This document shows positions 14,744 through 57,604 of a stretch of DNA of 64,000 nucleotides, one piece after another (position 1 is the stretch's first letter; each line of letters starts with the position of its first letter). This DNA comes from a virus. The notes beneath the pieces were generated by a model. That model was given only the letters and a program-made list of their open reading frames with translations. It did no database searches and had not been told where the DNA came from. The stretch lies in the IMG/VR virus record IMGVR_UViG_3300044611_002466, positions 96,001 through 160,000 of that record; one strand, given 5' to 3'. The position numbers and the translations under genes were made by a program.

Positions 14744-14772
14744 CGATGACGGTCCTCGCGTTCGGAGCCAGT

Positions 14773-16039: not shown

Positions 16040-16061
16040 GATGTCATTTACCTCCGCACTT

Positions 16062-16069
16062 CTTATGTC
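16062..16069 (-). promoter_or_regulatory. GNCATAAG box
   Basis: GACATAAG 7 nt upstream of GAGGT. Confidence 0.65.
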
Positions 16070-16139
16070 CAAAACGACGCAGAGCTAAAGAAACAGGGCC
16101 CGAAGTGCCCTGCCTCCCCGAAGACCAGCGGCGGGTCCT

Positions 16140-16826: not shown

Positions 16827-16869
16827 TTCGCCTCCAGATAGTGGAAGGCCTCGCTGACACGCAGAGCCC

Positions 16870-17507: not shown

Positions 17508-17992
17508 GTCTCTTCTTCCTCCTCCTCTTCCCCCTCTTCATCCCCGTAAGGGGCGGGCGGCGGCTGCCACGTCGCTTCGAGGAGCTCCCGGAGCTTGATC
17601 ATCTCCTTCAGGGCCTTCTCGGTCTGCGCGATGATCTCGTCACTGGCGCGGCCGCAGTCGTAGGGGTCGTTGTTCCGCCCAGTGAAGATTCGCGCATTCT
17701 CTCCCCAGATCTGTCCGACGAGCTTCTTCGCTCCCGCCCGCCTCTTGCGGTCCTCGTCGACTTCACCGATACGGAGGTCGAGGAGACCGTCCGGTGCCGG
17801 CACCCACTCTGGGGACGGCCGGATCGTCCAGACACGTCGGCCGTCTTCTGCAAACAGGCCCCCGCCAACTCGGTAGACAGGAAGACCCTCGAACAGCCGC
17901 CCCTTTCTGGCGAGCTTCGCCACGTCGAAGGTCACGACGTCCCTCACACTTTCCACCTGATATTCTTTTCCTTCTTGGATCTTCACGTTCAC
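17501..17992 (-). CDS. Hypothetical protein with acidic tail
   Basis: Downstream of the GNCATAAG box at 18004 and a GAGGTGA RBS. Confidence 0.65.
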   Translation of the reverse strand: MNVKIQEGKEYQVESVRDVVTFDVAKLARKGRLFEGLPVYRVGGGLFAEDGRRVWTIRPSPEWVPAPDGLLDLRIGEVDEDRKRRAGAKKLVGQIWGENARIFTGRNNDPYDCGRASDEIIAQTEKALKEMIKLRELLEATWQPPPAPYGDEEGEEEEEEETC

Positions 17993-18076
17993 CTCTCGAG
18001 GTTCTTATGCCCCATTCCATCGCATTTCACGGGGCTAAGAGACAGAGCCCGTCTTGACGACGAGCCCTGTCAGTAC

Positions 18077-18634
18077 TCACCCCCCGCGAGGAACGGCGTC
18101 GAACTGCACCAGCCTGTGTACGCTGAAGCATCGACCTTCGTGGCCGGGCTCGAGATTGCAGGCCAGGGCGCGCTCGTCATCGACCCCGCAGCAGTACACC
18201 CGCACACGCAGTCCTACCTCGGCGCGTATCGAGACCCGTGCTCCCTCGGGAGTGTTCGCGCGCAGCCACTCACGGAAGGACGCCTCCAGCGCGGCCTCCA
18301 TGTCTTTCGCAGGGACGTCCGCCGCGACCGCAGGACGGCTGTTGAGTTGCCCTTGAAGTCGCTCGACCTCCTCCACCAGAGCCTGCACGTCGTGCGGAGC
18401 GGTGTGAACGTAGCTCGACCACGCCCTGGCCCTGCTGAGCCGAGCCGCCTCTGCGGGGCAGTCCTTCTGGTGCCACCAGGGGTGGCCATAGCGGCAGCCA
18501 CAGGCCACGCAGACGCCTTCCCCCTTGGGCCGCCCAGGCAGCACCCTGAGCTTGGGCTGGCCTTCGTCGAGGTACTCGGAGGGCCCGATGGAGGCCAGCC
18601 GCGCCTTAATCTCGTCGAGGTTGAAGTCAGCCAT
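18077..18634 (-). CDS. Hypothetical protein (CxxC/H motifs)
   Basis: ATG at 18634 overlaps the upstream stop; CVACGC..HQKDC. Confidence 0.55.
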   Translation of the reverse strand: MADFNLDEIKARLASIGPSEYLDEGQPKLRVLPGRPKGEGVCVACGCRYGHPWWHQKDCPAEAARLSRARAWSSYVHTAPHDVQALVEEVERLQGQLNSRPAVAADVPAKDMEAALEASFREWLRANTPEGARVSIRAEVGLRVRVYCCGVDDERALACNLEPGHEGRCFSVHRLVQFDAVPRGG

Positions 18635-19077
18635 CAGCTGATTTCGTCGACGAAGAGAGCGACGTCGAGCGCCCCCGGCACGAGCTCCACGCGGGACGTG
18701 CCCTCGGTGATCTCGATGATGTCGACGTACACCACCCCGATCCGCGGGCTCACCGTCCGGACGAAGAGCATGCCGTCGATCTCCTGCGCCCAGAGCGGCA
18801 TGTTCAGTTTGTTCCACATGGGGGCGTCCCCTCCCGCCCAGATCCGGATAGGGAGCTTGCTCGAGCTCTTCGACTCGCCCGGCACCCTGGCGCACATGTT
18901 GAAGCCCCTCGGCATCCCCAGCGCGAGGGTGTGGCGGAAGTCCATCGTCGTCCCGCACACGTGACTGTCGCAGCTGAGGCCATATGCCGTGCTCGGCTTG
19001 TACTCCCCGCAGTCCGTATTGCTGCCGCACACGCAGCCGGGACACACGTACTTCTCAAGAATCGACTTCGCGTCCAT
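18634..19077 (-). CDS. Cys-rich hypothetical protein
   Basis: CPGCVCGSNTDC..CDSHVCGT. Confidence 0.6.
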   Translation of the reverse strand: MDAKSILEKYVCPGCVCGSNTDCGEYKPSTAYGLSCDSHVCGTTMDFRHTLALGMPRGFNMCARVPGESKSSSKLPIRIWAGGDAPMWNKLNMPLWAQEIDGMLFVRTVSPRIGVVYVDIIEITEGTSRVELVPGALDVALFVDEIS

Positions 19078-19562
19078 CAGGTCTTCTCCTTGGGTGGCGC
19101 ACTCTGCGCCTGTTGTTGTATTCGGGCTTGCTCGCGGAACTCCTCTGTGGTGAAGAGGTAGTACCCGTTGTGGACCAGCACGTTCGGGGTCGACCCCCAG
19201 GTGGCTGGGATCCAGTCTTCGCGCGGGTCGAGGCGACCGGCGTCAAACTCGCGGTCTTGGTAAGAGGCGCACGACTCGCCCACTTCACGCACCACAAGCT
19301 CGCCAAGGACGTTGACGATCTCGTAGATCATGCCCGCCTTCAGCAGGCCCTGGACGTTCTTGCCCAGGATGAGCTGACCGTCCGAGCGCACGGCCAGGCG
19401 CGCGACCGCAGCCTCTTGGCCCTTGGCCGGGGCGCGCTGACTCCCTCCACACGCCGGGCAGGTCTCCCAGCCGCGGCCCCAGCCGATGAACACCATGCCG
19501 GCTGGATGGTTGACCTCACCCGCCCTCGGTGCACAGCTCTGACACTGCCCTTTGTCCTTCAT
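19077..19562 (-). CDS. Hypothetical protein with CxxC..CxxCxG motif
   Basis: CQSC..CPACGGS. Confidence 0.55.
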   Translation of the reverse strand: MKDKGQCQSCAPRAGEVNHPAGMVFIGWGRGWETCPACGGSQRAPAKGQEAAVARLAVRSDGQLILGKNVQGLLKAGMIYEIVNVLGELVVREVGESCASYQDREFDAGRLDPREDWIPATWGSTPNVLVHNGYYLFTTEEFREQARIQQQAQSAPPKEKT

Positions 19563-19572
19563 AGTGACCCCC

Positions 19573-19929
19573 TCAATACATGATCTGGCGCCAAGCGCGC
19601 TCGGCCGTGAGACGGGAGAGCGCGTCCTTCTGGTGTTCATGGTGCAGCGCCTTCACCGCATTGGCCCGCGCCACCTCCCAGGTCTGGCTGAACAGCTCCT
19701 TGCCGTGCATCCTGAGCAGGGCACGGCTGTTCTCGGGCGTGGCGATCTCGGGAGGCAGCTCCGCCTTCGCGAGCAGCTGCATGACGGCCTCTCGAGCCGA
19801 ACTCGGGTCTACGACCTCTCCGTGGTTCTCGTAGTGTGCGGCGATCAGACGAATCACTGCCCACCCCGCCATCACGCCCACGAACCGCTCGAAGGTCTTG
19901 ACATCCCGCAGGATCTCTTCGTTCATCAT
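19573..19929 (-). CDS. Hypothetical helical protein
   Basis: Coupled ORF. Confidence 0.55.
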   Translation of the reverse strand: MMNEEILRDVKTFERFVGVMAGWAVIRLIAAHYENHGEVVDPSSAREAVMQLLAKAELPPEIATPENSRALLRMHGKELFSQTWEVARANAVKALHHEHQKDALSRLTAERAWRQIMY

Positions 19930-20189
19930 CGTACCGCCTCGAACGTGCCTTTCACTCGGTGGACCTGTATGGTACGCGACAGCAGATGCACCTTGCCGTT
20001 GTCGATACTGACGACGAGCCGCAGCTCCTTGGTGATGATGTCGTTGAGGCCCTTCACGCTCTCCGGGTTCAACGGCATGTAGATCCGGTTTGCTTCCTCG
20101 CGTACATTCACATGCTGCAGCCTAAACGTGTCTCCATCGTCAAGATCGCTGAGCAGGAGTCCGGGGTTTGTCTTGAAGGTGACGTCCAT
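19926..20189 (-). CDS. Hypothetical protein
   Basis: GAGGAAGG RBS, TAATG overlap. Confidence 0.55.
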   Translation of the reverse strand: MDVTFKTNPGLLLSDLDDGDTFRLQHVNVREEANRIYMPLNPESVKGLNDIITKELRLVVSIDNGKVHLLSRTIQVHRVKGTFEAVR

Positions 20190-20431
20190 TAGTCCTTCCT
20201 CTTGGTGGTCTTCTCTTCGGTCTCGGCCCACAGCTCCTCGAGCTTGTGGCGCAGGGGGATGTCACAGCCCTTGTTCATGGGCTCGATCTTCATGATGAGG
20301 CCATCGCCTCGGGAGGGGACGAGCACACCTCTGGCGATGAAGCCGTAGTTCTCTTCCTTCAGGTACTTGCGGAGGTTCGAGTCCTCGATGATCAAGTACT
20401 TCGGCCCCTCTTCTCCGCTTTCGTCCGTCAT
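20189..20431 (-). CDS. Hypothetical protein
   Basis: ATGA-coupled start at 20431. Confidence 0.5.
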   Translation of the reverse strand: MTDESGEEGPKYLIIEDSNLRKYLKEENYGFIARGVLVPSRGDGLIMKIEPMNKGCDIPLRHKLEELWAETEEKTTKRKD

Positions 20432-20733
20432 GACGACACCCCCGCAGCTTCGCACAGAGCGTCCCAGCTGGCGTCGAACATGTGACTCGCGTCCAGGCGG
20501 CGGTACGCCTGGCGCATCTTGCTCTCGTTGGGAGCGTACATCTTGCGCGCCTGCTCGTCTGTGGCGAGCACGAACTGTGCGCAGGAACAGCTGGCGTTCA
20601 GGCACTGTCGCTCAGTCTGCGGACTCGGCATGTTCTTGATGTGATCGACGTACGCGTGCCCGCAGGCACACATCGACACGCCCATAGGAGCGCCGTTGTC
20701 CGCGATGGGGTTCCTCTTCAGCTTCGGCATCAC
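20428..20733 (-). CDS. Cys-rich hypothetical protein
   Basis: CACGHAYVDH..CLNASCSC; GNCATAAG box at 20749 and GGAGGTGA RBS. Confidence 0.6.
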   Translation of the reverse strand: MMPKLKRNPIADNGAPMGVSMCACGHAYVDHIKNMPSPQTERQCLNASCSCAQFVLATDEQARKMYAPNESKMRQAYRRLDASHMFDASWDALCEAAGVSS

Positions 20734-20808
20734 TTCACCTCCGTGATGCTTATGACCGTGAGTTTCACAGGGTTAATGAACAGAGCCCGCCACGGGTTGT
20801 TCAAGCAC

Positions 20809-21357
20809 TCAGCCCTTCTTCGCCGTCCGCGCGTGGTTCTCCACGTGCGCGTGGAAGCAGCGGGCGTGCTCTTCTTGCATGAACAGGGCCCAGGAGACCT
20901 TCATCCCGCGGTCGTCCGTTCCTCCTCTGCTCTGCTTCGAGTAGGCCCACCATCCGTCGGTGGGCCGTGGCCGCATGTCATCCCCCGCGCCCAGCCGCTG
21001 CCGAAGGTAGAGGGGCTCGCAGAAGCGGTAGAGCGGGTGCTCCTTCAGCTGGTCCTCGATGAGGTCCTCGGCCTCCCGCCGCTGGTCGGGCATCCCCACG
21101 TACCAGAGCTCCTGGACGATCTTGCTCTCCGCCGGCAGAGAGATCTTGTCCACGATCAGGTTCTCGAGCTCCCGGGCAAGCGCGTCCATCTGAGCGCCGA
21201 CCGTGCCGAACTCGAACTCCGCAGCACCCATCCACTCGATCTCGAAGTTCTGCCCGAGTCGGCCCTTGTAGCGGTTGTCCGGCTCCTCGCGCCACGTCAG
21301 GCGCTGTACCAAGTAGGGCCGTGCAGTCGTTGTCGTCATCGCAGCTCCCATGCTCAT
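20809..21357 (-). CDS. Phage hypothetical protein (MGxAEFEFG motif)
   Basis: IEWMGAAEFEFG resembles a motif recurrent in phage hypotheticals. Confidence 0.65.
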   Translation of the reverse strand: MSMGAAMTTTTARPYLVQRLTWREEPDNRYKGRLGQNFEIEWMGAAEFEFGTVGAQMDALARELENLIVDKISLPAESKIVQELWYVGMPDQRREAEDLIEDQLKEHPLYRFCEPLYLRQRLGAGDDMRPRPTDGWWAYSKQSRGGTDDRGMKVSWALFMQEEHARCFHAHVENHARTAKKG

Positions 21358-21396
21358 GAAGAGGCCACTATGGCCTCGTTGTTGAAGTCGAAGGCG

Positions 21397-21723
21397 TTAC
21401 TGCTCTTCAAGGACGATGCCGAGGTCTTCTCCGCACAGCGCGGCTACCTCAGCAACCGCGGCCCACCAGCACGCACGATCTTCGTCGTCTTGCTCAGTCG
21501 GTTTGAGCCAATACCGCGCCCAGTCCGGCATGGCCTTTTCGTGCGGAGTGGGCATCCGTATGCGCCCGTAACCATCGGCATCTTCTCGCCGACCACACTC
21601 CTTGCACTTCGCGTAGAACTCGATGTTGTAGCCGAACGTGGCGTGGTCGTCGGCATACTGCTCACTGCCCTGCTCCCACACACCGCTGCACTCCACAGTG
21701 CGAAACCCGACGTGCCTGGTCAT
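21397..21723 (-). CDS. Hypothetical protein (CKEC)
   Basis: 108 aa ORF in operon orientation. Confidence 0.55.
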   Translation of the reverse strand: MTRHVGFRTVECSGVWEQGSEQYADDHATFGYNIEFYAKCKECGRREDADGYGRIRMPTPHEKAMPDWARYWLKPTEQDDEDRACWWAAVAEVAALCGEDLGIVLEEQ

Positions 21724-21729
21724 CTCGCC

Positions 21730-22041
21730 CTACCAGACGTGCACGTGGTACCAGCGCTCCTCGCGCTTACCGTTGGCGAAGGTGATGTGACAGCGCTGCA
21801 CCACCTTCGGCTTCCACAACCGTCCTTCCTGGGTCAAACGACGAAGAAGCTCGAGCATGTGCATGCCGCGCGTCTCGCTAAGACGAGGCTCATCGTGCTT
21901 CCCGAACTGCGCGCGCTCCTCCTCTGACAGCAGATGCAGAACGTCGCCGCCCGACATGCCTCCATCAGAGTGCTTGCGCTCGCCGTGTTGAACGAGGAAC
22001 AAGACACGCTCTTCCATGCCACTCTCGATACCACCCATCAT
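21730..22041 (-). CDS. Hypothetical, possible winged-helix protein
   Basis: GAGGTGA RBS; helix-helix-wing pattern (LRRLTQEGRLWK). Confidence 0.5.
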   Translation of the reverse strand: MMGGIESGMEERVLFLVQHGERKHSDGGMSGGDVLHLLSEEERAQFGKHDEPRLSETRGMHMLELLRRLTQEGRLWKPKVVQRCHITFANGKREERWYHVHVW

Positions 22042-22259
22042 TCACCTCGGTTGTTGGGGACGATCATGCCTGTCGGCTGAGATTCTCCACTCGTATCCGA
22101 AACGCGCAGTGCTCACAGGGCTCCACGTCTGGATGGCCCAGCAGCTTTGCGCAGTACCACTCTGGCGTGGGTCGGATGTCTGCCGCAGAAGAGCTGCAGT
22201 TCCCAGGTGGCGGAAGATGCACCCGGATGTGCATGTCGATGGAGCGAGAACCGCGCCGG

Positions 22260-23321
22260 TCAACGCCCATCGGGCTTTCGCGGCAGCACGAAGCCACGGT
22301 TGCCGAGTCCCTCCCAGCCCATGGGAACGCCATTGGCGTCGAACCACGTCCTCGTCTCATGCGGGAAGAGTCCGTTGTTGTACTCGTGGGTTCCTTCCGG
22401 CCACGTCTGCCGGCACACATGCGCGAGCATGCCGAAGGGATGGGCGTCGGTGATCAGGACACGCTCCCGACCACTCTCGTTCACCCGCTTGTTGTAGATG
22501 TCCACGACCTCGTTTCTGAGGAACAGCTCGAACGTGAGGGCTCGTGCCGCAACGCGTCTGAGCCACTCGATCGTTTGCGGTCCCTGCACCCGCGGCCACT
22601 TGGTCTTCGCGGAGTCTCCCTCCCCACGCACCCACTGCGTCCAGTACTCGACCATCGCATCCACCGCATCCTTGCGCGTCCACACGTCGGTGGACATGAC
22701 GTTGAACACAGCGGCGACTTCACCACGTGGCACACGCGTGGGCGGGTCCAGCTCCTCGGCGGCTCGCAGCTTGTGCCGAATATCCATCTTGCAGCGCGAC
22801 ACGGTCGACGCTTGGATCTTCAGCAGCTCGGCGAGTCGCTGCGTGCACCCGCGCCCTGACAGGACCTCGTTGACGATGGTGCGCTCGACTTCGTCCAACT
22901 CGGGGAGGATTCGAGCCAGCCGCATCCCGATGTTCGTGTAGCCGCCTGAGCGCAGCGCCTCGTGCTCCCACAAGAGCGCCGTATCCGGAGCGTTCTTGAT
23001 GACGAAGCGGCGCAGCCCCCGCAGCTGCATGTGGATGTGCGTCCACAGCGTGCTGCGCCCAGGCACCCACGTCTCACACGCCACGTGAACCAGCTGCCAC
23101 GCGTACATGTTCAGACTGCTCTCTTCCACCCTGCTCGCCTTGTACTTTTCGATCTCCGCACCAACTCGCGCGGAGAAGTGCTCGACCAGCGCATCGGACA
23201 GCCCATCCTTCGTCACACTCCACACCCCCCAGACCGCAGCGTCATGCACATGCGCCAGAACGCGCGCCTTCTCTTCTTCCACTTCCATCTCTTCCACGAC
23301 CTGCTCTGACGACTGATACAT
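22260..23321 (-). CDS. Divergent sigma70-like protein (region 2 and region 4 HTH) with C-terminal extension
   Basis: AWQLVHVACETWVPGRSTLWTHIHMQLRGLRRF has 13/33 gapless identities to the sigma at 56493; LPELDEVERTIV..LAELLKIQASTVSRCKMDIRHKL is region-4-like. Confidence 0.55.
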   Translation of the reverse strand: MYQSSEQVVEEMEVEEEKARVLAHVHDAAVWGVWSVTKDGLSDALVEHFSARVGAEIEKYKASRVEESSLNMYAWQLVHVACETWVPGRSTLWTHIHMQLRGLRRFVIKNAPDTALLWEHEALRSGGYTNIGMRLARILPELDEVERTIVNEVLSGRGCTQRLAELLKIQASTVSRCKMDIRHKLRAAEELDPPTRVPRGEVAAVFNVMSTDVWTRKDAVDAMVEYWTQWVRGEGDSAKTKWPRVQGPQTIEWLRRVAARALTFELFLRNEVVDIYNKRVNESGRERVLITDAHPFGMLAHVCRQTWPEGTHEYNNGLFPHETRTWFDANGVPMGWEGLGNRGFVLPRKPDGR

Positions 23322-47615: not shown

Positions 47616-47668
47616 CCTACTTATGACCCGGAAGGGCGCCCTCTTGCGCGGGCTGCTATGCTACCGGC

Positions 47669-50600
47669 ATGCTGGTGTACCCCGGTCAGATGCAGGGAGG
47701 TCCTGGAGGGCAGATGCCTGGCGCGGTGCCTGTGCCGGGTCCGTCGGTCTACCCCCCGCAGTTCACCTACGGCATCCCGCAGGGCTACGGAGGGGGTGCC
47801 GGAGCAGCGATGGCGTCGGGCATGGCCGCAGGCGTCGGAAGCCTTCCCTCGGCGCTGAGCACCGTCGGTATGGCAGCCGGTGTCGGCTCCTTCTTCGCGC
47901 CTTCCCCGATGATGCGGGGGTTGTCGTTTCTCGACCCCACGGCGGCGGGCTTCGAGGCCGCGTCGGCGCGCTTCGCGGCCTCGCGGGCGGCCGGGGCCGG
48001 GATGGGGTCAGCCCTCGGGTCTGGCATGATGACGGGCCTTCCCGTGATGGCAGCCGGCATGGCTGCCTTCGAGGGCATGCGGTACACCGGCCAGCAGTTC
48101 ATGACGGGGGCTCGTGAGCAGCAGATGCTGGGCGCTCAGCTGAGCGGCATCGGCTTCGCCAACGCCGGGTCCGCAAGCGGGCGTGGCTTCGGGTTTGGAC
48201 AGCAGCGTCAGATCGGCCAGATGATGCGTGAGATCGACGCGGCCGACCCGTTCACCACGATGCGGGACCTGAGCAAGTCCATGGACCAGTTCACGGGTCT
48301 GGGGATGCACCGCGGCATCGAGGACGCGAAGGAGTTCGCCAAGAAGTTCTCCGAGTTCGCCAAGACGACGAAGGAGATGGCCAAGATCATGGGGAAGACC
48401 CAGGAGGAGGCCGGGGCCATCTTCGGGCAGATGCGTACCGCCGGGTTCTACACGGCCAACGACGTGATGGGGAACACCCGCTCGATGAACGTCGCGCGGG
48501 GCATGGGCATGGAAGAGCAGATGTTCCACGCCATGCAGGGCCAGGGGGCCGGCACTGCACGGGCCCAGGGTATGCGCGGCAGGGCCGGGGCGGTCACGTC
48601 GTCCCGCTTCGCCTCCGACCTCATGCTTGGTGCCGCAAGTCGCTCCTCCGGGGGCGTTGGCGCCTTCTCCGACGCGGAGCTCATGGACATCACGGGCGCC
48701 GGGACGGGCGCCGACGCCGCGGCCCAGCTGGGCACCCAGATGTCCGCCATGATGGGCAACTTCCTGACGAACACGGCGGCGGGTCGAGGGTTCACCTCCG
48801 TGCTTGGGGAGAAGCGCGGCGGGCGTTACACCGGGGGCGTGGACCAGGAGATGCTCGCCAAGATGGGTGGCGGAGGGGTCGCCTTCCACGACCTTGCCGG
48901 CCTGGGCGGTGCGAAGATGGGGGACGCCGCTGGGCGGGCATCCTTCGTTGCCGGGCAGAACAAGATCGCGTCCTCCATCATGGAGAGCGACGGCGGTATC
49001 GACGCCCTCCTGCGTGCCGTTGAGGGGGAGGCTGATCGCTGGGGCAGACAGAACGGTGTCCTCGAGGACGACCGGTTCTCGGTCTTCACGAAGAAGGTCC
49101 TGGGCGACGACGAGCGAGTGCTCGAGAAGCTCAAGGAGATGCAGAAGCACAAGCTGGAGCTGCGAACCGCCCAGCTTCGCAAGATGCGTGAGGAGAACGC
49201 GGCCGCGGCCTACGCTGTGGACATGCAGCAGAACTACACCGTCGGAGGTGTGGCCCGGCAAGCGGGGGAGGGCCTCTACAACCTCACCGGGATGCAGAGC
49301 GTCCGCCAAGCCGGCGCCGGCCTCGTCTCCTCCATGCAGGAGAGCGGGCAGAGCGCGTGGGACACCTTCACCGGGACGGAGCGCCTGAACATCTCGGACG
49401 CCAGCTCGAGGCAGAGCCTACTGCGCCTGGCGTCTGGGAGGGGCGGCGGAGCTGGCCTCGGTACGGCTGCATCGGCGAGCGACTTCAGGAGCGGCACCGC
49501 CGCGGCGCAGAGCAGGGGACTTGGCGACGCCGGAGTGGCGCGCGAACTCGGGATTCAGCAGGCGCTCGCCGGGACCGGCCGCTACGACCAGAGCAACGAG
49601 AACTGGGGGAACGGGGAAGGGGCCGCGCTCGATGCGTTCATGAGCACAGCCGCGGGGGCCACGGCGGCGCAGCACATCATGTCCGCGCGAGCCCTGCGGG
49701 CCGCGGGGGACACCGCGGGGGCAGAGGAGGCTCTCGGACGTGCGAGCGCGCTGATCGAGTCCGACCCGGCGCTGCGAGCTGGCTCCATCACGCGCCAGTC
49801 TTCCATGATTGACGGCCCGGACATCAGCCAAGCCAACACGGGACGCCGGGACAAGATCCTGGCGGCCGCGATGTCGCGTGCGGGGGACGGCACGGGGGCC
49901 GCACGTCTTCGCAGCAAAGGAGGGGTCAAGTCCCACGCATACGGCGACCTGAAGAGTGCGCGGGAGGCGGCCGAGGGAGCCTGGGGACCTGGGTCCGTGT
50001 TCGGCAGCGATCTGGAGCGCGCCAAGAAGGCTCTCGCCACCGGTGGCGTCGGGTCGGACTTGTTCATCGCGATGACTCAGGACACCGCCCTCCAGAAGAG
50101 CGGCAGTGCTCACCAAGGGCTGCGTGTGCTGGCCGACTCGATGAAGGAGGAGCTGCGCGACGTGGAGGAGGGCTCCGACCAGTACTACGACATCCTGGCG
50201 CGCGGGGCACACGACAGATTCGGCGGCACCTACTCCAGAGAGTCGGTGAAGGCGGTCGCCGGAGTAGAGGCCGAAGAGTCGAAGTTCTACGACAAGAAGT
50301 ACTTCGCATCTGGCGGCTCACAGTCTGCCGCGGCCCGCAAGGAGCAGTCCGAGCTCTACGCGAAGGCCGGGCTGGCTGCCAAGGACTACCAGGACTACGC
50401 GATCAGCTCCACCTCCGCACGTGGGCTGTCCGGCGTGCTCGGCGGAGCGCCGGCGGAGATCAAACAGGCACTGGGCGCGGACTTCGACAAGGCGCTCGCC
50501 TCGATGGACCGCCTGAGTCGCGGAGGCGGGACCGCGAACTCCCAGGCCGCGTTCGACGACCTATCGCAGTTGATCACGGCGGTCGGCGGAAAGGACCTCA

Positions 50601-51210: not shown

Positions 51211-52499
51211 TGGCCGACATCCAGGGGGCTGGGGCACCGGTGGCCGTGCTGATCGAGACCGACCTCTCCGTCGTGGCGGCCTCCAAGAGCCCCACGCTGA
51301 ACGAGAGCACCACCGGCGCGGCCGGGCAGCAGCGGATGGTCCGGCGCCCTATGCGCGGGATTCAGCTCAAGTCGGAGACGTTCGCGACGCTGGCCCTGTC
51401 CTCGTCGGTCCTCAACTTGAAGAACTCGAGCGCCCCCTCCACCGGGGCCAGCTTCACGTCCAACTTCCTCCTTCAGTCCGTCTCAGAAGGCCGGCAGGAG
51501 AAGTTCCAGACCGTCCCCACCTTCGGCGCCACGTACGGGTTCTTCTACGGAGAGCAGCCGCGTATCGTCTCCTGCCAGGCGATCCTCCTCAACACCGCGG
51601 ACTTCCAGTGGGAGGCTGAGTGGTGGGAGAACTACGACCAGTACTTGCGCGGGACACGTCTGGTGGATCGAGGGATGACCGTGACCCTGACGTATGAAGA
51701 CGTGGTGCTCGAGGGGTACCTCGTGAGCGCCAGCGTCTCGAAGGGGGAGCCCAACCCCTGGGCCGTGAACCTCTCCTTCAACATGTGGGTGACGCGGGTC
51801 ACGTACCTGATCTCGCCGGTGGGAGCCGGGAACATCGACCCGATTCACCTGCGTGCGACGCAGACCCAGTACGACGAGTTCGAGTCCAGCGAGGGGCTCG
51901 GCAGCGCGCCTTCCATGTTGGCGGAGGTCCGCGCCCGGAACATCGCGTCGCTCGCCTCAGGGGAGGCCACGGGGCTCCTCGGGGCCCTGGCTCGTGCAGC
52001 GCACGCGGTACAAGAGCTCTCCGATAGGGTGAGCACCGCTGTGGACAACGCGCTGGACTGGCTCTACGGCCGGAACATGGTCATCCCGGTGGGGTTCGCC
52101 ACGTCGGACGACCAGCCCGGCGTCGCCATGATGGCAGACGGGTCGGGAATGGTGCTGCTGCCCAACGGACTCACCGCGGGCACCGCGACCATCCGGGCTC
52201 CCATACGCGTCGCCCCGCTGGTTCAGGTGGTGGGCGACTTCAACTACTTCGACCACAACGTCGACGAGTACCCGGCTCGGTTCCAGGCAGGGGTGCAGTT
52301 GCTCGACATCTCCGTGATGGAATCAGCAGATCCGGCCATTGCCTTCGCGGAGAAGATGTTCAAGAACTTCGGCATCGACGTCAGCAATGACGAGGGACAG
52401 CAGACGAGTGCCGTGATGCAGGCCCTCGGGCGCGTCACCTTCGCTGCGATCTCCTACACCGCCACAGTGATTACGTCGTCCGACACGGAAGGCACATGA
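51210..52499 (+). CDS. Tail tube-fold/baseplate initiator-like protein (putative)
   Basis: Beta-rich N-domain FLLQSVSE..EKFQ..TFG..FFYGEQPR..LEGYLVS..LSFNMWV; position after the tape measure gene. Confidence 0.45.
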   Translation: MADIQGAGAPVAVLIETDLSVVAASKSPTLNESTTGAAGQQRMVRRPMRGIQLKSETFATLALSSSVLNLKNSSAPSTGASFTSNFLLQSVSEGRQEKFQTVPTFGATYGFFYGEQPRIVSCQAILLNTADFQWEAEWWENYDQYLRGTRLVDRGMTVTLTYEDVVLEGYLVSASVSKGEPNPWAVNLSFNMWVTRVTYLISPVGAGNIDPIHLRATQTQYDEFESSEGLGSAPSMLAEVRARNIASLASGEATGLLGALARAAHAVQELSDRVSTAVDNALDWLYGRNMVIPVGFATSDDQPGVAMMADGSGMVLLPNGLTAGTATIRAPIRVAPLVQVVGDFNYFDHNVDEYPARFQAGVQLLDISVMESADPAIAFAEKMFKNFGIDVSNDEGQQTSAVMQALGRVTFAAISYTATVITSSDTEGT

Positions 52500-55400
52500 G
52501 TCAGATCGGAAGAGCGGAACCGCTGCACCTACGGCTCTTCATAGAGGGCGTAGAAGTGCCGGTTATCAGCGCCGTCGTCAGCGCGAACGAAGGTGCTCCG
52601 GCGAGCGCGCAGATCGAGGTGGTCCCCGCCAACTCCGGCCTGCATCTCGTCGCGCGGAGCAAGGTCAACCTCTTCTTCTACGACGGAGGCGACGGGATAG
52701 CCATCCCCGACGCCGACATCGCTGCCAACGCTAAGGGCACGCGCATGCCCTCCGACGAGCGGAGCCTCCTGGGGAGCGGCTACTACCAGCTGTTCTCCGG
52801 GGAGCTCTTCTCGCTCACCTACTCGAAGTCGGGGGCAGGAGCCCGGAGCCTGGTGCTCCAGTGTCTGGATGACAGCAACAACTGGGACACGTCCTTTCTG
52901 TACACGCTGCGCTACTCCGCCGATGCCGAAGAGGGTGCCGTTGCGGGCAGCACGATGAACATGATGGGGATCAGCGCGCCCACGTCTGATGACATCATCA
53001 CCGACCCCGCATCGATCATCAGTACGATCTCCAAGCGTCAGCAGGCGCTCAACCCCTCCGTGGCAGGATCCAAGGGGATGCTCGGGGGGCTGCTTGGGAT
53101 CTTGGAGTTGATCGGCGGCGTAGCTGGGCAATACGCAGGGATGACAGCTTGGCACACCATCCAGGAGGTACGCGTCCGCCTGATGGACCAGATCGCAGCC
53201 GACGACGGCAACACCGCGGTCGAGGTCTTCAACGAGACAGCGTTCGATCACTGGCTCTTGGCGGGGGTCTCCGACCTCGGCACGGTCGTCAGCTTCCGAA
53301 CTGTCGTCGACCTGATCAACCAGTTCATCTACTACACGGTCTCACCGAATCCGGTGGGTGTGTACGTCCCCGGGGATGGTGGAGTCCCGAAGTGGCCGGA
53401 CGGCCTCTTCGACAAGGCGGAGTCGGTCTCCAAGGACAGCGAGACGGGGGTGGACGCCGGCCTTGATCCGGACTTTGCCACTCTCAAGAACGCCATCTTG
53501 GCGTACTTGATCAACGACCTGGGGTGGAACGGTGCGGTGGGCGGCAAGCCAAAGGCCCGCATGTCCAGCGGGTTTCGGAATAGCGCCGAGCAGGCAGCCC
53601 TTACGCAGGGCACGGAACGGGAGGGACAGACACCAAGCAGCGCGCACATGGTCGGGTTTGCGGCTGACTTCAGCACAGCAGCGGGAATCGGGTTCTGCTA
53701 CAAGAACAAGCCGTCCGACTCCAAGGGTGCGAGCCTTCACAGACGCCTGATCTGGGCGGCGACCAAGTATGGACTCTCGGACGCCCAGAGCATCTACACG
53801 AAGGGGGTGGAGAAGGGGCTTCTGACTCTCGAGGAGGTCGGGCGCGCGAAGCAGATGGTCGACTTCTACAGGGACCTGCAGAAGGCCGTCAGAGAGCGCG
53901 GGCAGGGGAAGGTGACCTGGGGCGGTGACTGGGACTCGTCGGACGCGTGGCTGTCGTTGTACGGGCTCGGCGGTGACTGTGTGCACACCGAGATGACGGG
54001 CTGGCGGAACAAGGTCAAGAACAAGGAGGGGTCGACCACTTCACCGGCCGATCTCAGCGGCTACTACTCCGGCCTCATGAACCGCGAGCGCCTCTTCACG
54101 CAGTTCTTCCATCCGGACATCTGGTTTGCCTCTCCGCCAGCGTGCAACGTGATCTTCCCGGAGGAGGTCACCACGCTCTCGTTCAGCCGCGACTTCATGC
54201 GGGAGACGACGCGCCTGCAGCTCTCGACCGTCAACGCGATTGTCGGGGACTCGACTCTCCTGAACCAGAACTTCTTCGCACCGAAGGTCGACGCGGCCCT
54301 CAACCTGACCAGCGGCGGACTTGGTACGGCGGCGCGCGCCTTCATCCTGCCGCACGAGAAGTTCTCGGGCATCGTCCCGAAGCTCGAGAAGCTCTCCGAC
54401 CTCTCCCTCTACGTCAGGCTCTCGGAGGAGCAGCACCACGAAGAGGCGCACGCTGATGTCGCTGAAACGACGAAGGCCGCCGCGGAGCCCTCCGCCGAGA
54501 AGAAGGAGACCGAGCTCGAGGTCTGGGCCGACCGCACGGCGGCCTTCACCTTCCTCTCGCATCGGTATGACGCGCGCTCCCTGTCCGTGTCGATGAAGTT
54601 CACCCCGCGCCTGGCGGTGGGGTTCCCCGCGCTGGTCATCGACCGCACGAACCCGGAGACCACGGAGGACGAGCAGGCGGCCCCCTCTACGAGCGCGTTC
54701 TCGCCGAACCACTTCCTCGGCACCATCCGGGCGCTGACGCACTCTGTCACGCAGGATGGAGGAGCCACGTCGGTTCAGCTGAGCCACGTGCGGCTCCACA
54801 AGGCGTCGATGGATGACCTGTTCGCATCGGGAACCTACGCGAACAAGGGGATCATGTCCGTGCAGGTGGTCCCGGCTCCAGCCTCGCCGCGCACGATCAA
54901 GAACACTGACACCATGACCACGCAGACCCTCAAGTGGATTGTGGGGGTACACGAGGCGATGAGCCGGTACAAGCTCGACATCGCCAAGCCAGACATGGCA
55001 GGTCCGGCAGGCCGGCCGCTGCAAGGCGCGATCACCATCGTGAAGGTGCTGCCCGAGGGCAGCCTCGTGACGTGGTCCACGAACGACGGCGGTCCTGGCA
55101 GCTTCGCGGGCCCCCGGATCGAGGAGTCCCTGCCCTTCTCCAGCATCACCTTCACGGAGCCGGACGGGGACCCGGCCTACCTACCGCTCGAGGAGGCGAT
55201 CAAGCCAGCCTGGATGTCGGAGACCTACTCGAACAAGCTCATCGGTGGCTTCTACCGTCAGATCCTCGGTTGTGGTTCGATTCACGACCTGTACCCGAAC
55301 GTCCCCCCGGGCAAGGCCCCGGACGGCACACCCTACGCGAGCACGAGCGTAGAGCGTGTGACGGAAGCGCTGGTTGCGGAGTACACGTCGCAGTCCGATG

Positions 55401-55723
55401 GCGGGTACCTGGGGCACACCTTCATCCACGGCAAGACGCGGCGCAGCTACGCCAGCATCGCGCAGGTGTTCGGCTACTGGACGGGGACCGGGGAGGCCCG
55501 CAAGCATGTGCAGGGGTTCTACACGCAGTCCATCGGCTGGGACGAGGGGTACTCCCGGCTTGCGAAGGACCGCTGGGAGTGGATGGCGAACGCCGCCGGT
55601 ACGCTGGTGAACACGACGGAGCCCAACCAGATTCGTCCCGAGCTCGACCCCCGCAGAGGGCGATACGGCCCTGCGCTCGCCTACCGTGACGAGTTGGCGC
55701 GGGCCCTGGGGCGCCGAGGGTAG
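52496..55723 (+). CDS. Baseplate hub-like protein with inserted M15 (L-Ala-D-Glu-type) peptidase domain
   Basis: LRLFIEGVEVPV hub-type N-terminus; SSGFRNSAEQ..SAHMVGFAADF..TWGGDW..DCVHTEM M15 motifs. Confidence 0.7.
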   Translation: MSQIGRAEPLHLRLFIEGVEVPVISAVVSANEGAPASAQIEVVPANSGLHLVARSKVNLFFYDGGDGIAIPDADIAANAKGTRMPSDERSLLGSGYYQLFSGELFSLTYSKSGAGARSLVLQCLDDSNNWDTSFLYTLRYSADAEEGAVAGSTMNMMGISAPTSDDIITDPASIISTISKRQQALNPSVAGSKGMLGGLLGILELIGGVAGQYAGMTAWHTIQEVRVRLMDQIAADDGNTAVEVFNETAFDHWLLAGVSDLGTVVSFRTVVDLINQFIYYTVSPNPVGVYVPGDGGVPKWPDGLFDKAESVSKDSETGVDAGLDPDFATLKNAILAYLINDLGWNGAVGGKPKARMSSGFRNSAEQAALTQGTEREGQTPSSAHMVGFAADFSTAAGIGFCYKNKPSDSKGASLHRRLIWAATKYGLSDAQSIYTKGVEKGLLTLEEVGRAKQMVDFYRDLQKAVRERGQGKVTWGGDWDSSDAWLSLYGLGGDCVHTEMTGWRNKVKNKEGSTTSPADLSGYYSGLMNRERLFTQFFHPDIWFASPPACNVIFPEEVTTLSFSRDFMRETTRLQLSTVNAIVGDSTLLNQNFFAPKVDAALNLTSGGLGTAARAFILPHEKFSGIVPKLEKLSDLSLYVRLSEEQHHEEAHADVAETTKAAAEPSAEKKETELEVWADRTAAFTFLSHRYDARSLSVSMKFTPRLAVGFPALVIDRTNPETTEDEQAAPSTSAFSPNHFLGTIRALTHSVTQDGGATSVQLSHVRLHKASMDDLFASGTYANKGIMSVQVVPAPASPRTIKNTDTMTTQTLKWIVGVHEAMSRYKLDIAKPDMAGPAGRPLQGAITIVKVLPEGSLVTWSTNDGGPGSFAGPRIEESLPFSSITFTEPDGDPAYLPLEEAIKPAWMSETYSNKLIGGFYRQILGCGSIHDLYPNVPPGKAPDGTPYASTSVERVTEALVAEYTSQSDGGYLGHTFIHGKTRRSYASIAQVFGYWTGTGEARKHVQGFYTQSIGWDEGYSRLAKDRWEWMANAAGTLVNTTEPNQIRPELDPRRGRYGPALAYRDELARALGRRG

Positions 55724-55760: not shown

Positions 55761-55970
55761 ATGCCCACCACCCCGCTCTCGCTCGACACGCTTCGCTCCT
55801 TCTCCGCCGAGGTACAGAAGGAGGCTGCCGCCACGCTCCCGGACAAATGGACCGCGGCGGCCCTCATGGGCGGAGGGGCCGTAGGGGCTCATGTGCTCCA
55901 GAAGGCGTTCAAGGACTGGAAGAACGGCCGCCAGCTGCGAGTGCAGCAGTCCGGCTACGGGGGGTTCTGA
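55761..55970 (+). CDS. Small probable virion/internal protein
   Basis: LRSFSAEVQKEAA motif then AAALMGGGAVGA hydrophobic helix. Confidence 0.5.
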   Translation: MPTTPLSLDTLRSFSAEVQKEAAATLPDKWTAAALMGGGAVGAHVLQKAFKDWKNGRQLRVQQSGYGGF

Positions 55971-56488
55971 TGGACACACCGCAGAAGAAGGTAGACCTCA
56001 AAGATTCCCCGGCGCTGGCGGCGTACGCCAAGTGGCGGCCACGACTGCGTCGCGCTGCTTCGTGGGCGTTTCCCGCCGCGGCGGTAGGCAAGGCGGTTGG
56101 AGTCGCAACGAACCCCATCATCGGTCTTACGATCGGCGCGGGGCTCGCTGGCGCGGCGGATGCCACGCTCGAGGAGAAGCTCAGGCAGCTGAAGGACCAC
56201 AAGGCGCGGACCCTCGTGCAACGCGGATTCGAGGAGACCCACATGGGCAAGAAGGCTGGCATCGACGTCGACCCGTTCACCACCTCGGCCATCACCGCCG
56301 CAGAGCTCGAGACGAACCTCGCGCTCACAGGCCTCACGCGCAAGAGAGACGAGTTCGCCTCCCGGGCGAGCAGTCAGCTGTCGGACTACTTCCCGGCCGC
56401 GGGCGGCCAGGTGAGCGGCTACGGGCGCGGCCTGCGCCTGTCGACCGGACAGGGCTCGATCGCGCAGATGCTCGCTGGTTTGAGGTAG
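55970..56488 (+). CDS. Probable virion/internal protein
   Basis: TGATG overlap; Gly/Ala hydrophobic helices; GFEETHMGKKAG motif. Confidence 0.5.
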   Translation: MDTPQKKVDLKDSPALAAYAKWRPRLRRAASWAFPAAAVGKAVGVATNPIIGLTIGAGLAGAADATLEEKLRQLKDHKARTLVQRGFEETHMGKKAGIDVDPFTTSAITAAELETNLALTGLTRKRDEFASRASSQLSDYFPAAGGQVSGYGRGLRLSTGQGSIAQMLAGLR

Positions 56489-56492
56489 GACG

Positions 56493-57368
56493 ATGGGGCT
56501 CCTGCTGCGCGCCTTCGAGAAGCGGGCAACGTCGGTGGAGACACCTGCCGTACCGGCGCTCGTTGTACCGCAGCCGCCTCCGCCGGCCGAGCAGTGGCAT
56601 CCCGAGTGGGCGCCGCAGGCCGGATGGCACGGCGAGGGGAACCCCGGGGGCTGGAGGCGTCCGGCTCTTGAGGCGCGGCGGAAGGAGCTCTTCCTGTGGG
56701 ATCAGTGGAAGAAGGGGGGCCAGACCCCCGAGCTCTCCGCCCCTCTCATGAAGTCCCTGCGGCCGGTCATCTACTCGCAAGGGGTGCGTGCCTGGATCAA
56801 CCGAGTGCCGGTGCAGCCCGCCGTCCTCGAGTCCAAGGCGGTGCAGCTGGCGCTGGGCGCGCTGGAGTCGTACAACCCGGCAGCGGCACAGCTCAACACC
56901 CACCTCACGATCACCCTGAAGGGGATGCACCGATTCGCCACGTCACGGCAGAACATGACGCGGCTGACGGAGGCCCGCCGTCGCCTGGTCGGTCCTTACC
57001 AGCGCGCCCTCGCGCGCCTGAAGGACAAGCTGGAGCGAGAGCCGAGCGTCCTCGAGCTCGCGGACGAGATGAAGGAGACTCCGGACAACGTGGAGAAGCT
57101 CCTGCTGGAGATGAAGGACGACCTCATGTCCTCCGGGACGATGAACGACCCCTTCCTCGACGAGACGCCGGAGTCCCGCCTCAAGCTGCTGCTCATCCGA
57201 TACAGCTTGACCCCCGAAGAGGGGACCGTGTTCGACTACCTCATGGGTCAGGGCGGCAAGCCCCGCGTCGAGAGCCCTGGCGAAATCGCAAAGCGTGAGG
57301 GGTGGTCCAGCTCCAAGGTCTCCCAGCTGAAGAACGCGATCATGCGGAAGTGGAAGGGCGTCGCATGA
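56493..57368 (+). CDS. Sigma70-family RNA polymerase sigma factor (FliA/SigF-like, regions 2, 3 and 4)
   Basis: ALESYNPAAAQLNTHL (r2), LKDKLEREPSVLELADEM (r3), LTPEEGTVF..EIAKREGWSSSKVSQLKNAIMRK (r4); about 60-aa N-terminal leader beginning LLRAFEKRA. Confidence 0.8.
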   Translation: MGLLLRAFEKRATSVETPAVPALVVPQPPPPAEQWHPEWAPQAGWHGEGNPGGWRRPALEARRKELFLWDQWKKGGQTPELSAPLMKSLRPVIYSQGVRAWINRVPVQPAVLESKAVQLALGALESYNPAAAQLNTHLTITLKGMHRFATSRQNMTRLTEARRRLVGPYQRALARLKDKLEREPSVLELADEMKETPDNVEKLLLEMKDDLMSSGTMNDPFLDETPESRLKLLLIRYSLTPEEGTVFDYLMGQGGKPRVESPGEIAKREGWSSSKVSQLKNAIMRKWKGVA

Positions 57369-57604
57369 GTAGCCCCGAGCTTCAGACGTTCGTCGGCGAG
57401 CTCGAGACGGCGCTGCTCGAGCACCTCGACGCGGAGACCGACCGCGTCAAGAGCGAGCGCGACTTCCTCCTCGCGGTGTACAACGGACGCACGGACGGGG
57501 CCACCACCGAGGATGCCTCGACCGGGTTCGTGATGCGATACTTGACGGGCATGTTCAACGGGTACGTGCTCGTCGAGAGAGATGTGAGCGCCCCCAGCAG
57601 CTGA
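57365..57604 (+). CDS. Small hypothetical protein
   Basis: ATGA-coupled to the sigma gene. Confidence 0.55.
   Translation: MSSPELQTFVGELETALLEHLDAETDRVKSERDFLLAVYNGRTDGATTEDASTGFVMRYLTGMFNGYVLVERDVSAPSS

What the first reader, a model, noticed from the sequence alone, without database searches (positions are those of the whole stretch)
56493..57368. Sigma factor inside the baseplate operon with a virion-protein-type N-terminal leader: possibly a packaged, injected sigma
Seen: an ORF with sigma70 regions 2, 3 and 4 lies between two small probable virion proteins and the Ig-like/baseplate genes, and is coupled to the next gene. It has a ~60-aa Pro-rich leader starting MGLLLRAFEKRA, the same F/E..K-x-A motif found in neighbouring probable head proteins (FSAEVQKEAA, FTEITKSA, FKKTAS). 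Known: jumbo phages such as phiKZ package protease-processed transcription machinery, and T4/SPO1 use phage sigmas in cascades. Inference: this sigma is made late, packaged, clipped at K-x-A and delivered with the DNA to redirect host RNA polymerase to early promoters. I do not know of a described virion-borne sigma working with host core RNAP.
Basis: partly seen in the sequence, partly recalled or inferred. Interest (0 to 1): 0.82.

Follow-up and report, generated by a model that had tools for sequence, protein, structure and literature searches.

The report
Phage sigma factor paired with phage polymerase
A 188-kb lake-water phage carries a genuine sigma factor inside its tail-gene operon; it most likely steers the phage's own bacterial-type RNA polymerase, not the host's, and probably travels in the virus particle, a combination that current reviews say does not exist.

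Summary
The ORF at 56493-57368 (+) is real. It encodes a complete sigma70-family protein (sigma2-sigma3-sigma4), fused by overlapping junctions into a long late tail operon. The genome encodes a 2,973-aa single-chain bacterial-type beta-beta' RNA polymerase, and 12 of 14 related phage contigs with this sigma also carry that polymerase; the two without it are 32% and 55% complete.

The packaging idea gains support. In the only cultured relative, Salmonella phage Arash, the syntenic sigma (gp10) was found in purified particles at a peptide density equal to beta and beta'.

The N-terminal tag is also real. Across 112 family representatives, hydrophobic-x-K-x-A-[AGST] is 41-fold denser in leaders than in the sigma core, and it marks joints in sigma fusions. 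No cleavage has been measured.

A rigid G-N-(C/T)ATAAG promoter drives replication genes on the strand opposite sigma, polymerase and virion genes. This holds in most of the relatives, including Arash.

Best reading (confidence about 0.55): a virion-delivered holoenzyme of phage polymerase plus sigma starts infection from these promoters. Other windows of this scan had already noted the K-x-A motif, the fused polymerase and the promoter. I re-derived each independently. This is a new variant of a known kind.

The parts
56493..57368 (+). Sigma70-family gene (291 aa), conserved across the clade
   Evidence: homologues in 14 related phage loci in the same position; 978 cluster representatives at E<=1e-3
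56493..56531 (+). N-terminal tag, residues 1-13: predicted amphipathic helix (residues 2-12) ending in F-E-K-R-A-T, the only hydrophobic-x-K-x-A site in the protein
56532..56669 (+). Pro/Trp-rich flexible linker, residues 14-59. The Pro/Ala part varies in sequence and length. The WHPEW..GW..GWR block is conserved only in the closest relatives
56670..57365 (+). Sigma core: sigma2 (about 60-153), sigma3 (166-207), low-confidence linker (208-225), sigma4 (226-290)
56482..56485 (+). Shine-Dalgarno GAGG, overlapping the end of the upstream gene (TAG at 56486-56488)
57365..57604 (+). Small downstream ORF (79 aa), translationally coupled by an ATGA overlap; conserved in close relatives
55970..56488 (+). 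Upstream small ORF (172 aa) with hydrophobic segments; conserved in L020-L022
55761..55970 (+). Upstream small ORF (69 aa) with an N-terminal V-Q-K-E-A-A tag and a Gly-rich hydrophobic C-terminus
52496..55723 (+). Tail-associated cell-wall hydrolase-like protein (1,075 aa). It is a homologue of Arash gp8, which was detected in particles, and anchors the conserved synteny
47620..47627 (-). Nearest example of the G-N-CATAAG promoter class. There are 21 copies in the window, all on the - strand, and none precedes sigma

Best explanation
The gene encodes the promoter-specificity (sigma) subunit of the phage's own single-chain beta-beta' RNA polymerase. It is translated from the long late tail operon. 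It carries a short N-terminal amphipathic tag ending in hydrophobic-x-K-x-A, then a flexible Pro-rich linker, then a full sigma2-sigma3-sigma4 core. Sigma and polymerase are most likely loaded into the particle and delivered with the DNA. The holoenzyme can then fire the rigid G-N-(C/T)ATAAG promoters that drive the replication and accessory genes on the opposite strand. The tag is probably a cargo-loading or protease-processing signal shared with head-assembly proteins. Shown: sigma identity, operon context, co-occurrence with the phage polymerase, the clade-wide promoter class, and the motif statistics. From the literature: the Arash homologue is present in purified particles. Inferred: the sigma-polymerase pairing, packaging in this phage, the sigma-promoter pairing, and cleavage.
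For: (1) It is a full sigma70 fold and profile. (2) The genome encodes one bacterial-type beta-beta' fusion, E 2e-86 to bacterial beta'. Its beta' part keeps the clamp coiled-coil that docks sigma2 and an intact NADFDGD motif. No alpha subunit was found. (3) 12 of 14 relatives with this sigma have the fused RNAP; the two misses are 32% and 55% complete contigs. (4) The synteny hydrolase - small ORFs - sigma - Ig-like genes holds down to 27-31% identity. (5) Arash particles were purified on a sucrose gradient and pelleted. Sigma gp10 gave 24 unique peptides for 234 aa and 467 spectra, beta 128 for 1,525 aa, and beta' 40 for 606 aa. Evident contaminants gave 2-11 peptides. (6) CATAAG occurs 29 times on the - strand and once on the + strand in this genome. 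It sits upstream of DNA polymerase, topoisomerase and helicase genes. Sigma, RNAP, terminase, sheath and protease genes are on the + strand with no such site. (7) The same promoter, in its C or T variant, is strand-specific and opposite sigma in G001, G004, G005, G006, G007, G010, G011, G012, G013 and Arash (2 forward, 34 reverse). The G that replaces the T(-7) of sigma70 promoters is part of every copy of the hexamer that is enriched and strand-specific. (8) One of Arash's two forward copies lies just upstream of gp9 and sigma gp10. (9) Tag statistics: hydrophobic-x-K-x-A-[AGST] occurs 37 times in leaders against 3.2+-1.8 expected, with 1 for the reversed motif. In the core it occurs 4 times against 11.5+-3.1 expected. 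In the ligase-sigma fusion P0139 its only site is at the joint.
Against: There is no proteome, transcriptome or biochemistry for this phage. The Arash particle preparation reported 116 of 272 proteins, so carry-over is possible, as its authors say. Arash gp10 and the L029/L030 sigmas lack the tag. No RNAP in 11 relatives has the tag. So the tag is not a universal loading requirement, and how the polymerase would be loaded is unexplained. (C/T)ATAAG is 4-5 of 6 matches to the universal TATAAT, with an extended -10-like G, so host primary sigma is not excluded. No sigma residue tracks the C and T variants. No late (+ strand) promoter was found, so it is unknown what transcribes sigma and the polymerase. 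This genome also has a second, genome-specific sigma-like gene on the early strand.
Confidence: 0.55

Rival explanations
1. Intracellular late sigma. The sigma pairs with the phage polymerase, but only inside the infected cell, to transcribe late (+ strand) genes, itself included. The YATAAG promoters are read by host primary-sigma holoenzyme early in infection. The Arash signal in particles is carry-over of an abundant DNA-bound enzyme.
For: The sigma sits in a late operon. YATAAG resembles an extended -10 TGnTATAAT promoter. The Arash preparation contained many non-structural enzymes. The tag is missing in Arash gp10.
Against: Sigma, beta and beta' have peptide densities equal to or above bona fide structural proteins and far above the evident contaminants. 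The G at the position of T(-7), and the near-invariance of all eight bases across hosts, are atypical of host-sigma70 phage promoters. No late promoter class was found that this sigma could read. In Arash the RNAP gene sits directly after the portal gene, in the head module.
Confidence: 0.25
2. First reader's model. The sigma is packaged and injected, and it binds the host core RNA polymerase to redirect it to phage early promoters.
For: It has a sigma70 fold with a conserved region 2.2-like Y-D-P-x-K-G motif that could in principle dock any bacterial beta'. It is present in particles in Arash.
Against: The phage encodes its own complete catalytic core with an intact sigma-docking coiled-coil. 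Sigma and this core are co-inherited across genomes of 53-65% GC, and Arash infects Salmonella while the hosts of the others are unknown. Beta and beta' are in Arash particles at a per-residue spectral count similar to sigma's.
Confidence: 0.1
3. The N-terminal motif is not a processing or loading signal. It is instead a docking or regulatory helix, for example autoinhibition like region 1.1 or contact with the polymerase.
For: It is a predicted helix at residues 2-12. It is missing in some functional-looking homologues. The sigma-pyrophosphatase fusion P0134 has no K-x-A at its joint.
Against: The same directional motif is enriched in late proteins of this genome (20, against 4-13 for controls), including four copies in the scaffold-position ORF. 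It occurs at residues 25-32 of both major capsid proteins. It is enriched in the Arash head region, 33 against 8 reversed. It punctuates joints between unrelated modules fused to sigma and is depleted in the folded core.
Confidence: 0.1

Closest known systems
Salmonella phage Arash gp10 (with RNAP gp206 + gp216), OQ632216, PMC10585845
   Same: It is a homologous sigma (27% identity over residues 64-287) in the same tail-module position. The phage encodes a bacterial-type RNAP. The same GG(T)ATAAG promoter lies on the opposite strand. Sigma, beta and beta' were detected in purified particles.
   Different: Arash gp10 lacks the about 60-aa leader and tag. Its RNAP is split into two genes rather than one intein-bearing chain. 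The paper lists the proteins but does not analyse sigma-RNAP pairing, promoters or packaging.
phiKZ/AR9 virion and non-virion multisubunit RNAPs (nvRNAP factors gp68 / gp226)
   Same: These phages encode beta/beta'-like polymerases. One set is made late, packaged and injected to transcribe early genes independently of the host. A dedicated subunit confers promoter specificity.
   Different: phiKZ-type enzymes are split into 4-5 highly diverged polypeptides, there are two separate enzymes, and they have no sigma70-family homologue (PMC7824862, PMC13282480). Here there is one close-to-bacterial single-chain core plus a canonical sigma2-3-4 protein.
Phage late sigmas that hijack host core (T4 gp55, SPO1 gp28/gp34, sigma genes of RNAP-less jumbo phages)
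   Same: They are phage-encoded sigma70-family proteins that impose phage-specific promoter recognition.
   Different: Those phages have no polymerase of their own, and the sigmas are early or middle genes, not known particle components. Here the phage has its own core, and the sigma lies inside a structural operon.
T4 internal proteins with capsid-targeting sequence, cut by prohead protease gp21
   Same: A short N-terminal peptide sits on otherwise unrelated cargo proteins. The motif is shared with scaffold and capsid proteins and is avoided in the mature domains.
   Different: The T4 sites are L/I-x-E and the phiKZ sites are S/A/G-x-E. Here the motif is hydrophobic-x-K-x-A-[AGST], and neither targeting nor cleavage has been demonstrated.

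Membership tests
Sigma70 family | Sigma2 domain (regions 2.1-2.4), including the core-binding 2.2 segment | tested here: met
   The family profile aligns to SigA and RpoS from region 2 onward, E 3.7e-17. The Y-D/N-P-x-K-G-x-x-L-x-T-H block is conserved. The fold matches sigma chains. The Pfam Sigma70_r2 model itself does not score on this protein.
Sigma70 family | Sigma3 domain | tested here: met
   Pfam Sigma70_r3 scores 28.7 bits against a cut-off of 25.3, residues 169-206.
Sigma70 family | Sigma4 helix-turn-helix | tested here: met
   The profile alignment runs through region 4.2 of SigA. PHROG 351 covers residues 155-288. The model has helices at 226-290.
Sigma70 family | Aromatic melting residues of region 2.3 (E. 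coli Y430/W433 equivalents) | tested here: not met
   The aligned segment reads T-H-L-T-I-T-L-K where RpoS has T-Y-A-T-W-W-I-R. This suggests a non-canonical way of opening the -10 element. It does not remove family membership by homology.
Sigma70 family | Binds RNAP core and confers promoter-specific initiation | not testable with these tools
   Only indirect evidence: the docking coiled-coil is kept in the phage beta', and the sigma co-occurs with the phage core.
FliA/WhiG (sigma28) subfamily | Score above the NCBIfam TIGR02479 cut-off | tested here: not met
   18.7 bits against a cut-off of 189.6. The upstream promoter box is weak, with only an A at -19 in 22 of 29 sites.
Virion-delivered transcription machinery (phiKZ vRNAP, N4 vRNAP type) | Gene lies in a late or structural transcription unit | tested here: met
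   Overlapping junctions inside the tail operon, with no promoter or terminator signal above chance. It is co-oriented with terminase, protease and sheath genes.
Virion-delivered transcription machinery (phiKZ vRNAP, N4 vRNAP type) | Protein present in purified particles | not testable with these tools
   This phage is uncultured. The homologue gp10 was detected in Arash particles (PMC10585845).
Virion-delivered transcription machinery (phiKZ vRNAP, N4 vRNAP type) | Early transcription independent of the host polymerase | not testable with these tools
   No data. No RNA run is listed.
Protease-processed capsid cargo (T4 CTS type) | Conserved N-terminal signal shared with head-assembly proteins and avoided in mature domains | tested here: met
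   Leader density is 6.46 per 1000 aa against 0.16 in the core. The scaffold-position ORF has four copies. The major capsid proteins carry the motif at residues 25-32.
Protease-processed capsid cargo (T4 CTS type) | Cleavage at the motif by the prohead protease | not testable with these tools
   Only a weak protease call, phrog_18299 at E 5e-5. Arash major capsid protein coverage of 86.6% is compatible with cleavage but not diagnostic.
Host-core-hijacking phage sigma (T4 gp55 type) | Phage lacks a polymerase of its own | tested here: not met
   A 2,973-aa beta-beta' ORF is present.

The most novel reading that the evidence does not exclude
A whole clade of about 150-200 kb phages injects a ready-made, bacterial-type holoenzyme: a single-chain beta-beta' core plus a canonical sigma70-family factor. 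This holoenzyme fires a rigid G-N-(C/T)ATAAG regulon. Sigma is loaded into the particle through a hydrophobic-x-K-x-A cargo tag that the head protease removes. That would be the first virion-delivered sigma factor and the first phage polymerase shown to use a true sigma.
Probability: 0.4. Interest if true: 0.88.

Novelty: new variant of a known kind. Interest (0 to 1): 0.76.

Why it matters
Reviews up to 2026 (PMC7824862, PMC13282480) divide large phages into two groups. One group has its own multisubunit polymerase and no sigma homologue. The other has sigma genes and no polymerase.

This clade has both, and its only cultured member shows both in particles. If the pairing holds, it is the simplest known bacterial-type transcription system: one catalytic chain plus one sigma, with no alpha. 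It would come with a defined 8-bp promoter and a natural example of sigma delivery between cells.

It would also give a tractable model (Arash in Salmonella) for how sigma-core recognition and promoter melting work without the canonical aromatic residues.

Finally, it points to a cargo tag, hydrophobic-x-K-x-A, that could explain how enzymes are loaded into capsids.

Tried and rejected
1. 'One tag per holoenzyme'. Arash RNAP begins M-P-K-S-A-S while its sigma has no tag. However, the RNAPs of 11 relatives start M-P-N-L-N-P-E with no tag, and G011 has a tag on neither protein. Rejected.

2. Sigma-residue co-variation with the C and T promoter variants. No discriminating column was found. Inconclusive.

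3. Late (+ strand) promoter search. ACATCGC is coding sequence, with 33 sites on the + strand and 20 on the - strand. TTGGCAC (17:0) lies in coding and repeat sequence. No second enriched k-mer was found upstream of starts. Nothing found.

4. Sigma cascade through a second sigma. A sigma-like paralogue exists at window 22260-23321 (-), but it is unique to this genome. It cannot explain the clade.

5. FliA/sigma28 membership. Not met.

6. Strand-asymmetric k-mers alone did not reveal promoters in G006 or G013. Enrichment upstream of Shine-Dalgarno plus start sites did.

7. An alpha subunit (PF01000) and Rpb1_1 (PF04997) were not detected.

8. No RNA holder is listed among public runs, so there is no expression evidence either way.

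9. The search for related loci with the 42-sequence alignment failed for lack of a conserved stretch. A 13-sequence alignment worked.

10. Two PDB searches with thresholds that were too strict returned nothing.

Full report
OBSERVATION

The window is bases 96001-160000 of a 188,230-bp viral record that CheckV rates complete. DNA holders are lake-water metagenomes.

The ORF at 56493-57368 (+) encodes 291 aa beginning MGLLLRAFEKRA. The upstream gene ends in TAG four bases before the ATG, with a GAGG ribosome-binding site. The sigma stop overlaps the next gene's start as ATGA. Between 47 and 64 kb there is no sigma70-type promoter or intrinsic terminator above shuffled expectation. The gene is therefore an internal member of one long + strand operon.

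That operon begins with a 1,110-aa tape-measure-like protein, followed by a 1,075-aa cell-wall-hydrolase-like protein. It continues into weakly Ig-like and large conserved tail proteins.

IS IT A SIGMA?

Yes. The evidence:
- Pfam Sigma70_r3 passes its cut-off, 28.7 against 25.3 bits.
- PHROG 351 covers residues 155-288.
- phmmer against 1.8 billion representatives finds 978 relatives at E<=1e-3 and 481 at E<=1e-10, with a conserved core at residues about 60-288.
- A 42-sequence profile hits solved SigA, SigB and RpoS structures from region 2 through region 4.2, best E 3.7e-17.
- An AlphaFold model (pLDDT 85.6) is all-helical, with sigma2, sigma3 and sigma4 separated by a low-confidence linker. 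Its best Foldseek matches are all sigma chains.

It belongs to no curated bacterial subfamily. FliA/WhiG scores 18.7 bits against a 189.6 cut-off. Where primary sigmas have the aromatic melting residues of region 2.3, this family has T-H-(L/V)-T-x-x-L-K.

THE PARTNER: A PHAGE POLYMERASE

The genome has one 2,973-aa ORF (G000 14146-23067, + strand). It carries Rpb2_6 (222 bits), Rpb2_3, Rpb1_2 and Rpb1_5 domains and is interrupted by a LAGLIDADG intein. It matches bacterial beta' and beta at E 2e-86 and 1e-81.

Its beta' segment aligns without breaks to E. coli beta' 160-466. That span includes the clamp coiled-coil that docks sigma region 2, and the NADFDGD catalytic motif is intact. No alpha subunit was detected.

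THE CLADE

Two IMG/VR contigs carry 78% and 70% identical sigmas. Eleven more carry 31-48% identical ones. Among cultured phages only Salmonella phage Arash has a homologue, at 27% identity.

In all 14 loci the sigma lies downstream of the homologues of g51210 and the hydrolase, in most of them ahead of the Ig-like genes and/or g61630. Twelve of the 14 records encode the long beta(-beta') ORF. The two that do not are 32% and 55% complete.

Sigma and polymerase are therefore co-inherited across genomes of 53-65% GC.

PARTICLES

The Arash paper (PMC10585845) purified particles by sucrose gradient and pelleting and reported LC-MS.

| Protein | Unique peptides | Length (aa) | Spectra |
|---|---|---|---|
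| Sigma gp10 | 24 | 234 | 467 |
| Beta gp206 | 128 | 1,525 | 3,516 (highest of all) |
| Beta' gp216 | 40 | 606 | 1,210 |

Sigma gp10 had 100% sequence coverage. Spectra per residue, by my calculation, are 2.0, 2.3 and 2.0, which is compatible with a 1:1:1 complex. Ribonucleotide reductase and other evident carry-over enzymes have 2-11 peptides.

The authors raise early transcription as one possibility and carry-over as the other. They discuss neither promoters nor sigma-core pairing. In Arash the polymerase gene directly follows the portal gene.

PROMOTERS

CATAAG occurs 29 times on the - strand of this genome and once on the + strand. GNCATAAG occurs 26 times, all on the - strand, against about 11.5 expected over both strands. 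The sites lie 10-15 nt before a Shine-Dalgarno sequence and start codon. A G two bases upstream is conserved in 26 of 29, like an extended -10 element, and there is a weak A-rich box near -19.

The - strand encodes DNA polymerase, topoisomerase II, DnaB-like helicase and another helicase. The + strand encodes terminase, a head-protease-like protein, the sheath, the polymerase and sigma. No + strand copy lies near sigma or the polymerase.

The motif is clade-wide, in two variants.

| Variant | Genome | Forward / reverse counts |
|---|---|---|
| C (GNCATAAG) | G001 | 0/32 |
| C | G004 | 2/29 |
| C | G005 | 17/3 |
| C | G012 | 0/10 |
| T (GNTATAAG) | G006 | 29/5 |
| T | G007 | 11/1 |
| T | G010 | 10/2 |
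| T | G011 | 1/16 |
| T | G013 | 5/13 |
| T | Arash | 2/34 |

In every case the promoters are on the strand opposite the sigma gene. An independent enrichment test upstream of start sites recovers CATAAG in G000 (16 against 0.8 expected) and GGTATAAG in G006 (20 against 0.8).

The hexamer ends in G where primary-sigma promoters have their critical T(-7). That rigidity across different genomes favours a phage-borne specificity factor. The only sigma conserved across the clade is this one.

One of Arash's two forward copies sits 4 nt before gp9, about 300 nt upstream of sigma gp10. This hints at autoregulation.

Caveats: the element is still 4-5 of 6 matches to TATAAT. No sigma residue tracks the C and T variants. 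I found no late promoter.

THE LEADER

Residues 2-12 are a predicted helix, and residues 13-59 are a Pro/Trp-rich low-confidence segment. Among clade members the N-termini are otherwise unalignable. Most still carry a hydrophobic helix ending in hydrophobic-x-K-x-A. Arash and L029/L030 lack it.

Across 112 family representatives, none more than 50% identical to another:
- Hydrophobic-x-K-x-A-[AGST] occurs 37 times in 5,727 pre-core residues. Shuffling gives 3.2+-1.8, and the reversed motif occurs once.
- In 25,540 core residues it occurs 4 times. Shuffling gives 11.5+-3.1, and the reversed motif occurs 17 times.
- That is a 41-fold difference in density.
- 38 of 81 short leaders have the motif, against 4 with the reversed motif.

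Long variants fuse sigma to unrelated enzymes. P0139 is LigD phosphoesterase plus DNA ligase plus sigma, and its only motif copy in 682 aa sits at the joint. P0064, P0142 and P0088 have 4 copies each, and P0084 has 3 by the strict pattern, or 5 counting every K-x-A. P0134, a sigma-pyrophosphatase fusion, has none at its joint.

In this genome the forward motif hydrophobic-[EDQ]-K-x-A is enriched in + strand proteins, 20 against 4-13 for permuted controls. It is not enriched in - strand proteins. F-[EDQ]-K-x-A is 6:0. The ORF in the scaffold position has four copies. The G000 major capsid candidate and the Arash major capsid protein both carry a K-x-A site within residues 25-32. The Arash head region shows 33 forward copies against 8 reversed.

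This is the signature expected of a loading or processing signal, but no cleavage has been measured. The polymerase has no such leader in any of 11 relatives, so how it would be loaded is open.

SYNTHESIS

The sigma identity is secure. Pairing with the phage polymerase is the parsimonious reading, at roughly 0.75. Functional packaging is about 0.55. Recognition of the YATAAG promoters is about 0.5. Cleavage at the tag is about 0.4.

The main rival is an intracellular late sigma, with host-read YATAAG promoters.

Reviews state that phage multisubunit polymerases lack sigma homologues and that sigma-encoding large phages lack polymerases. I found no paper that describes this combination beyond the Arash gene list.

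EARLIER NOTES OF THIS SCAN

A look-up showed that other windows of the same genome had already been noted for the K-x-A motif, the fused polymerase and the promoter. I had found the polymerase and the promoter bias before the look-up. I tested the motif independently on the sigma family. Those notes are AI leads and are not counted as evidence.

Noticed in passing
window 22260-23321 (-): A second, highly diverged sigma-like gene (353 aa). The family profile scores E 1.8e-12 and hhalign gives 95.9% over sigma2 plus an HTH. It lies directly behind a GNCATAAG site (window 23343). It has no homologue in 14 relatives or in the 5.8-billion-protein collection.
   Followed up: partly
G000 14146-23067 (+), outside the window (L004:6-8927): A single-chain beta-beta' RNA polymerase of 2,973 aa with a LAGLIDADG intein at about residues 1511-1923. 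Relatives have 2,030-2,889-aa versions. From the alignment with relatives, the true start is probably the M-P-N-L-N-P-E codon, six codons into the ORF.
   Followed up: partly
window 1626-47625 (-), 21 sites (for example 47625, 23343, 13350): G-N-CATAAG promoter-like elements occur only on the - strand, often just after a terminator-like hairpin and a TTTAGCC box. The T variant GGTATAAG replaces it in Arash and in more distant relatives.
   Followed up: yes
L002 (Arash) 11588-11595 (+): One of only two forward-strand GGTATAAG copies in Arash lies 4 nt before the gp9 start, about 300 nt upstream of sigma gp10. This may be sigma autoregulation or a leaderless gp9 transcript.
   Followed up: partly
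P0139, P0134, P0084 (sigma family members from metagenomes): Sigma is fused to unrelated enzymes: LigD phosphoesterase plus ATP-dependent DNA ligase, inorganic pyrophosphatase, and a P-loop domain. The context of P0084 (L033) is a run of large co-oriented ORFs without Pfam hits.
   Followed up: partly
G000 49307-50377 (+), outside the window: The ORF in the scaffold position, after the protease-like gene, has a repeated F-(Q/D)-K-x-A-A-A-E-G-(I/L)-D-L unit and four hydrophobic-[EDQ]-K-x-A sites.
   Followed up: no
window 55761-55970 and 55970-56488 (+): Two small ORFs lie between the hydrolase and sigma. The first has a V-Q-K-E-A-A tag and a Gly-rich hydrophobic tail. The second has hydrophobic segments. 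They may be membrane-active ejection proteins. Only the second is widely conserved among close relatives.
   Followed up: no
G000 178653-178938, outside the window: Tandem-like repeats (they contain the TTGGCAC word) encode a repetitive Pro/Ala/Glu-rich peptide on the - strand.
   Followed up: no
G000 68147-70207 (+), outside the window: A 686-aa protein with an inorganic pyrophosphatase domain (132 bits) has an N-terminal A-F-A-D-E-L-G-K-Q-A-A motif. This resembles the tag of the small ORF at window 55761. The same domain is fused to sigma in P0134.
   Followed up: no
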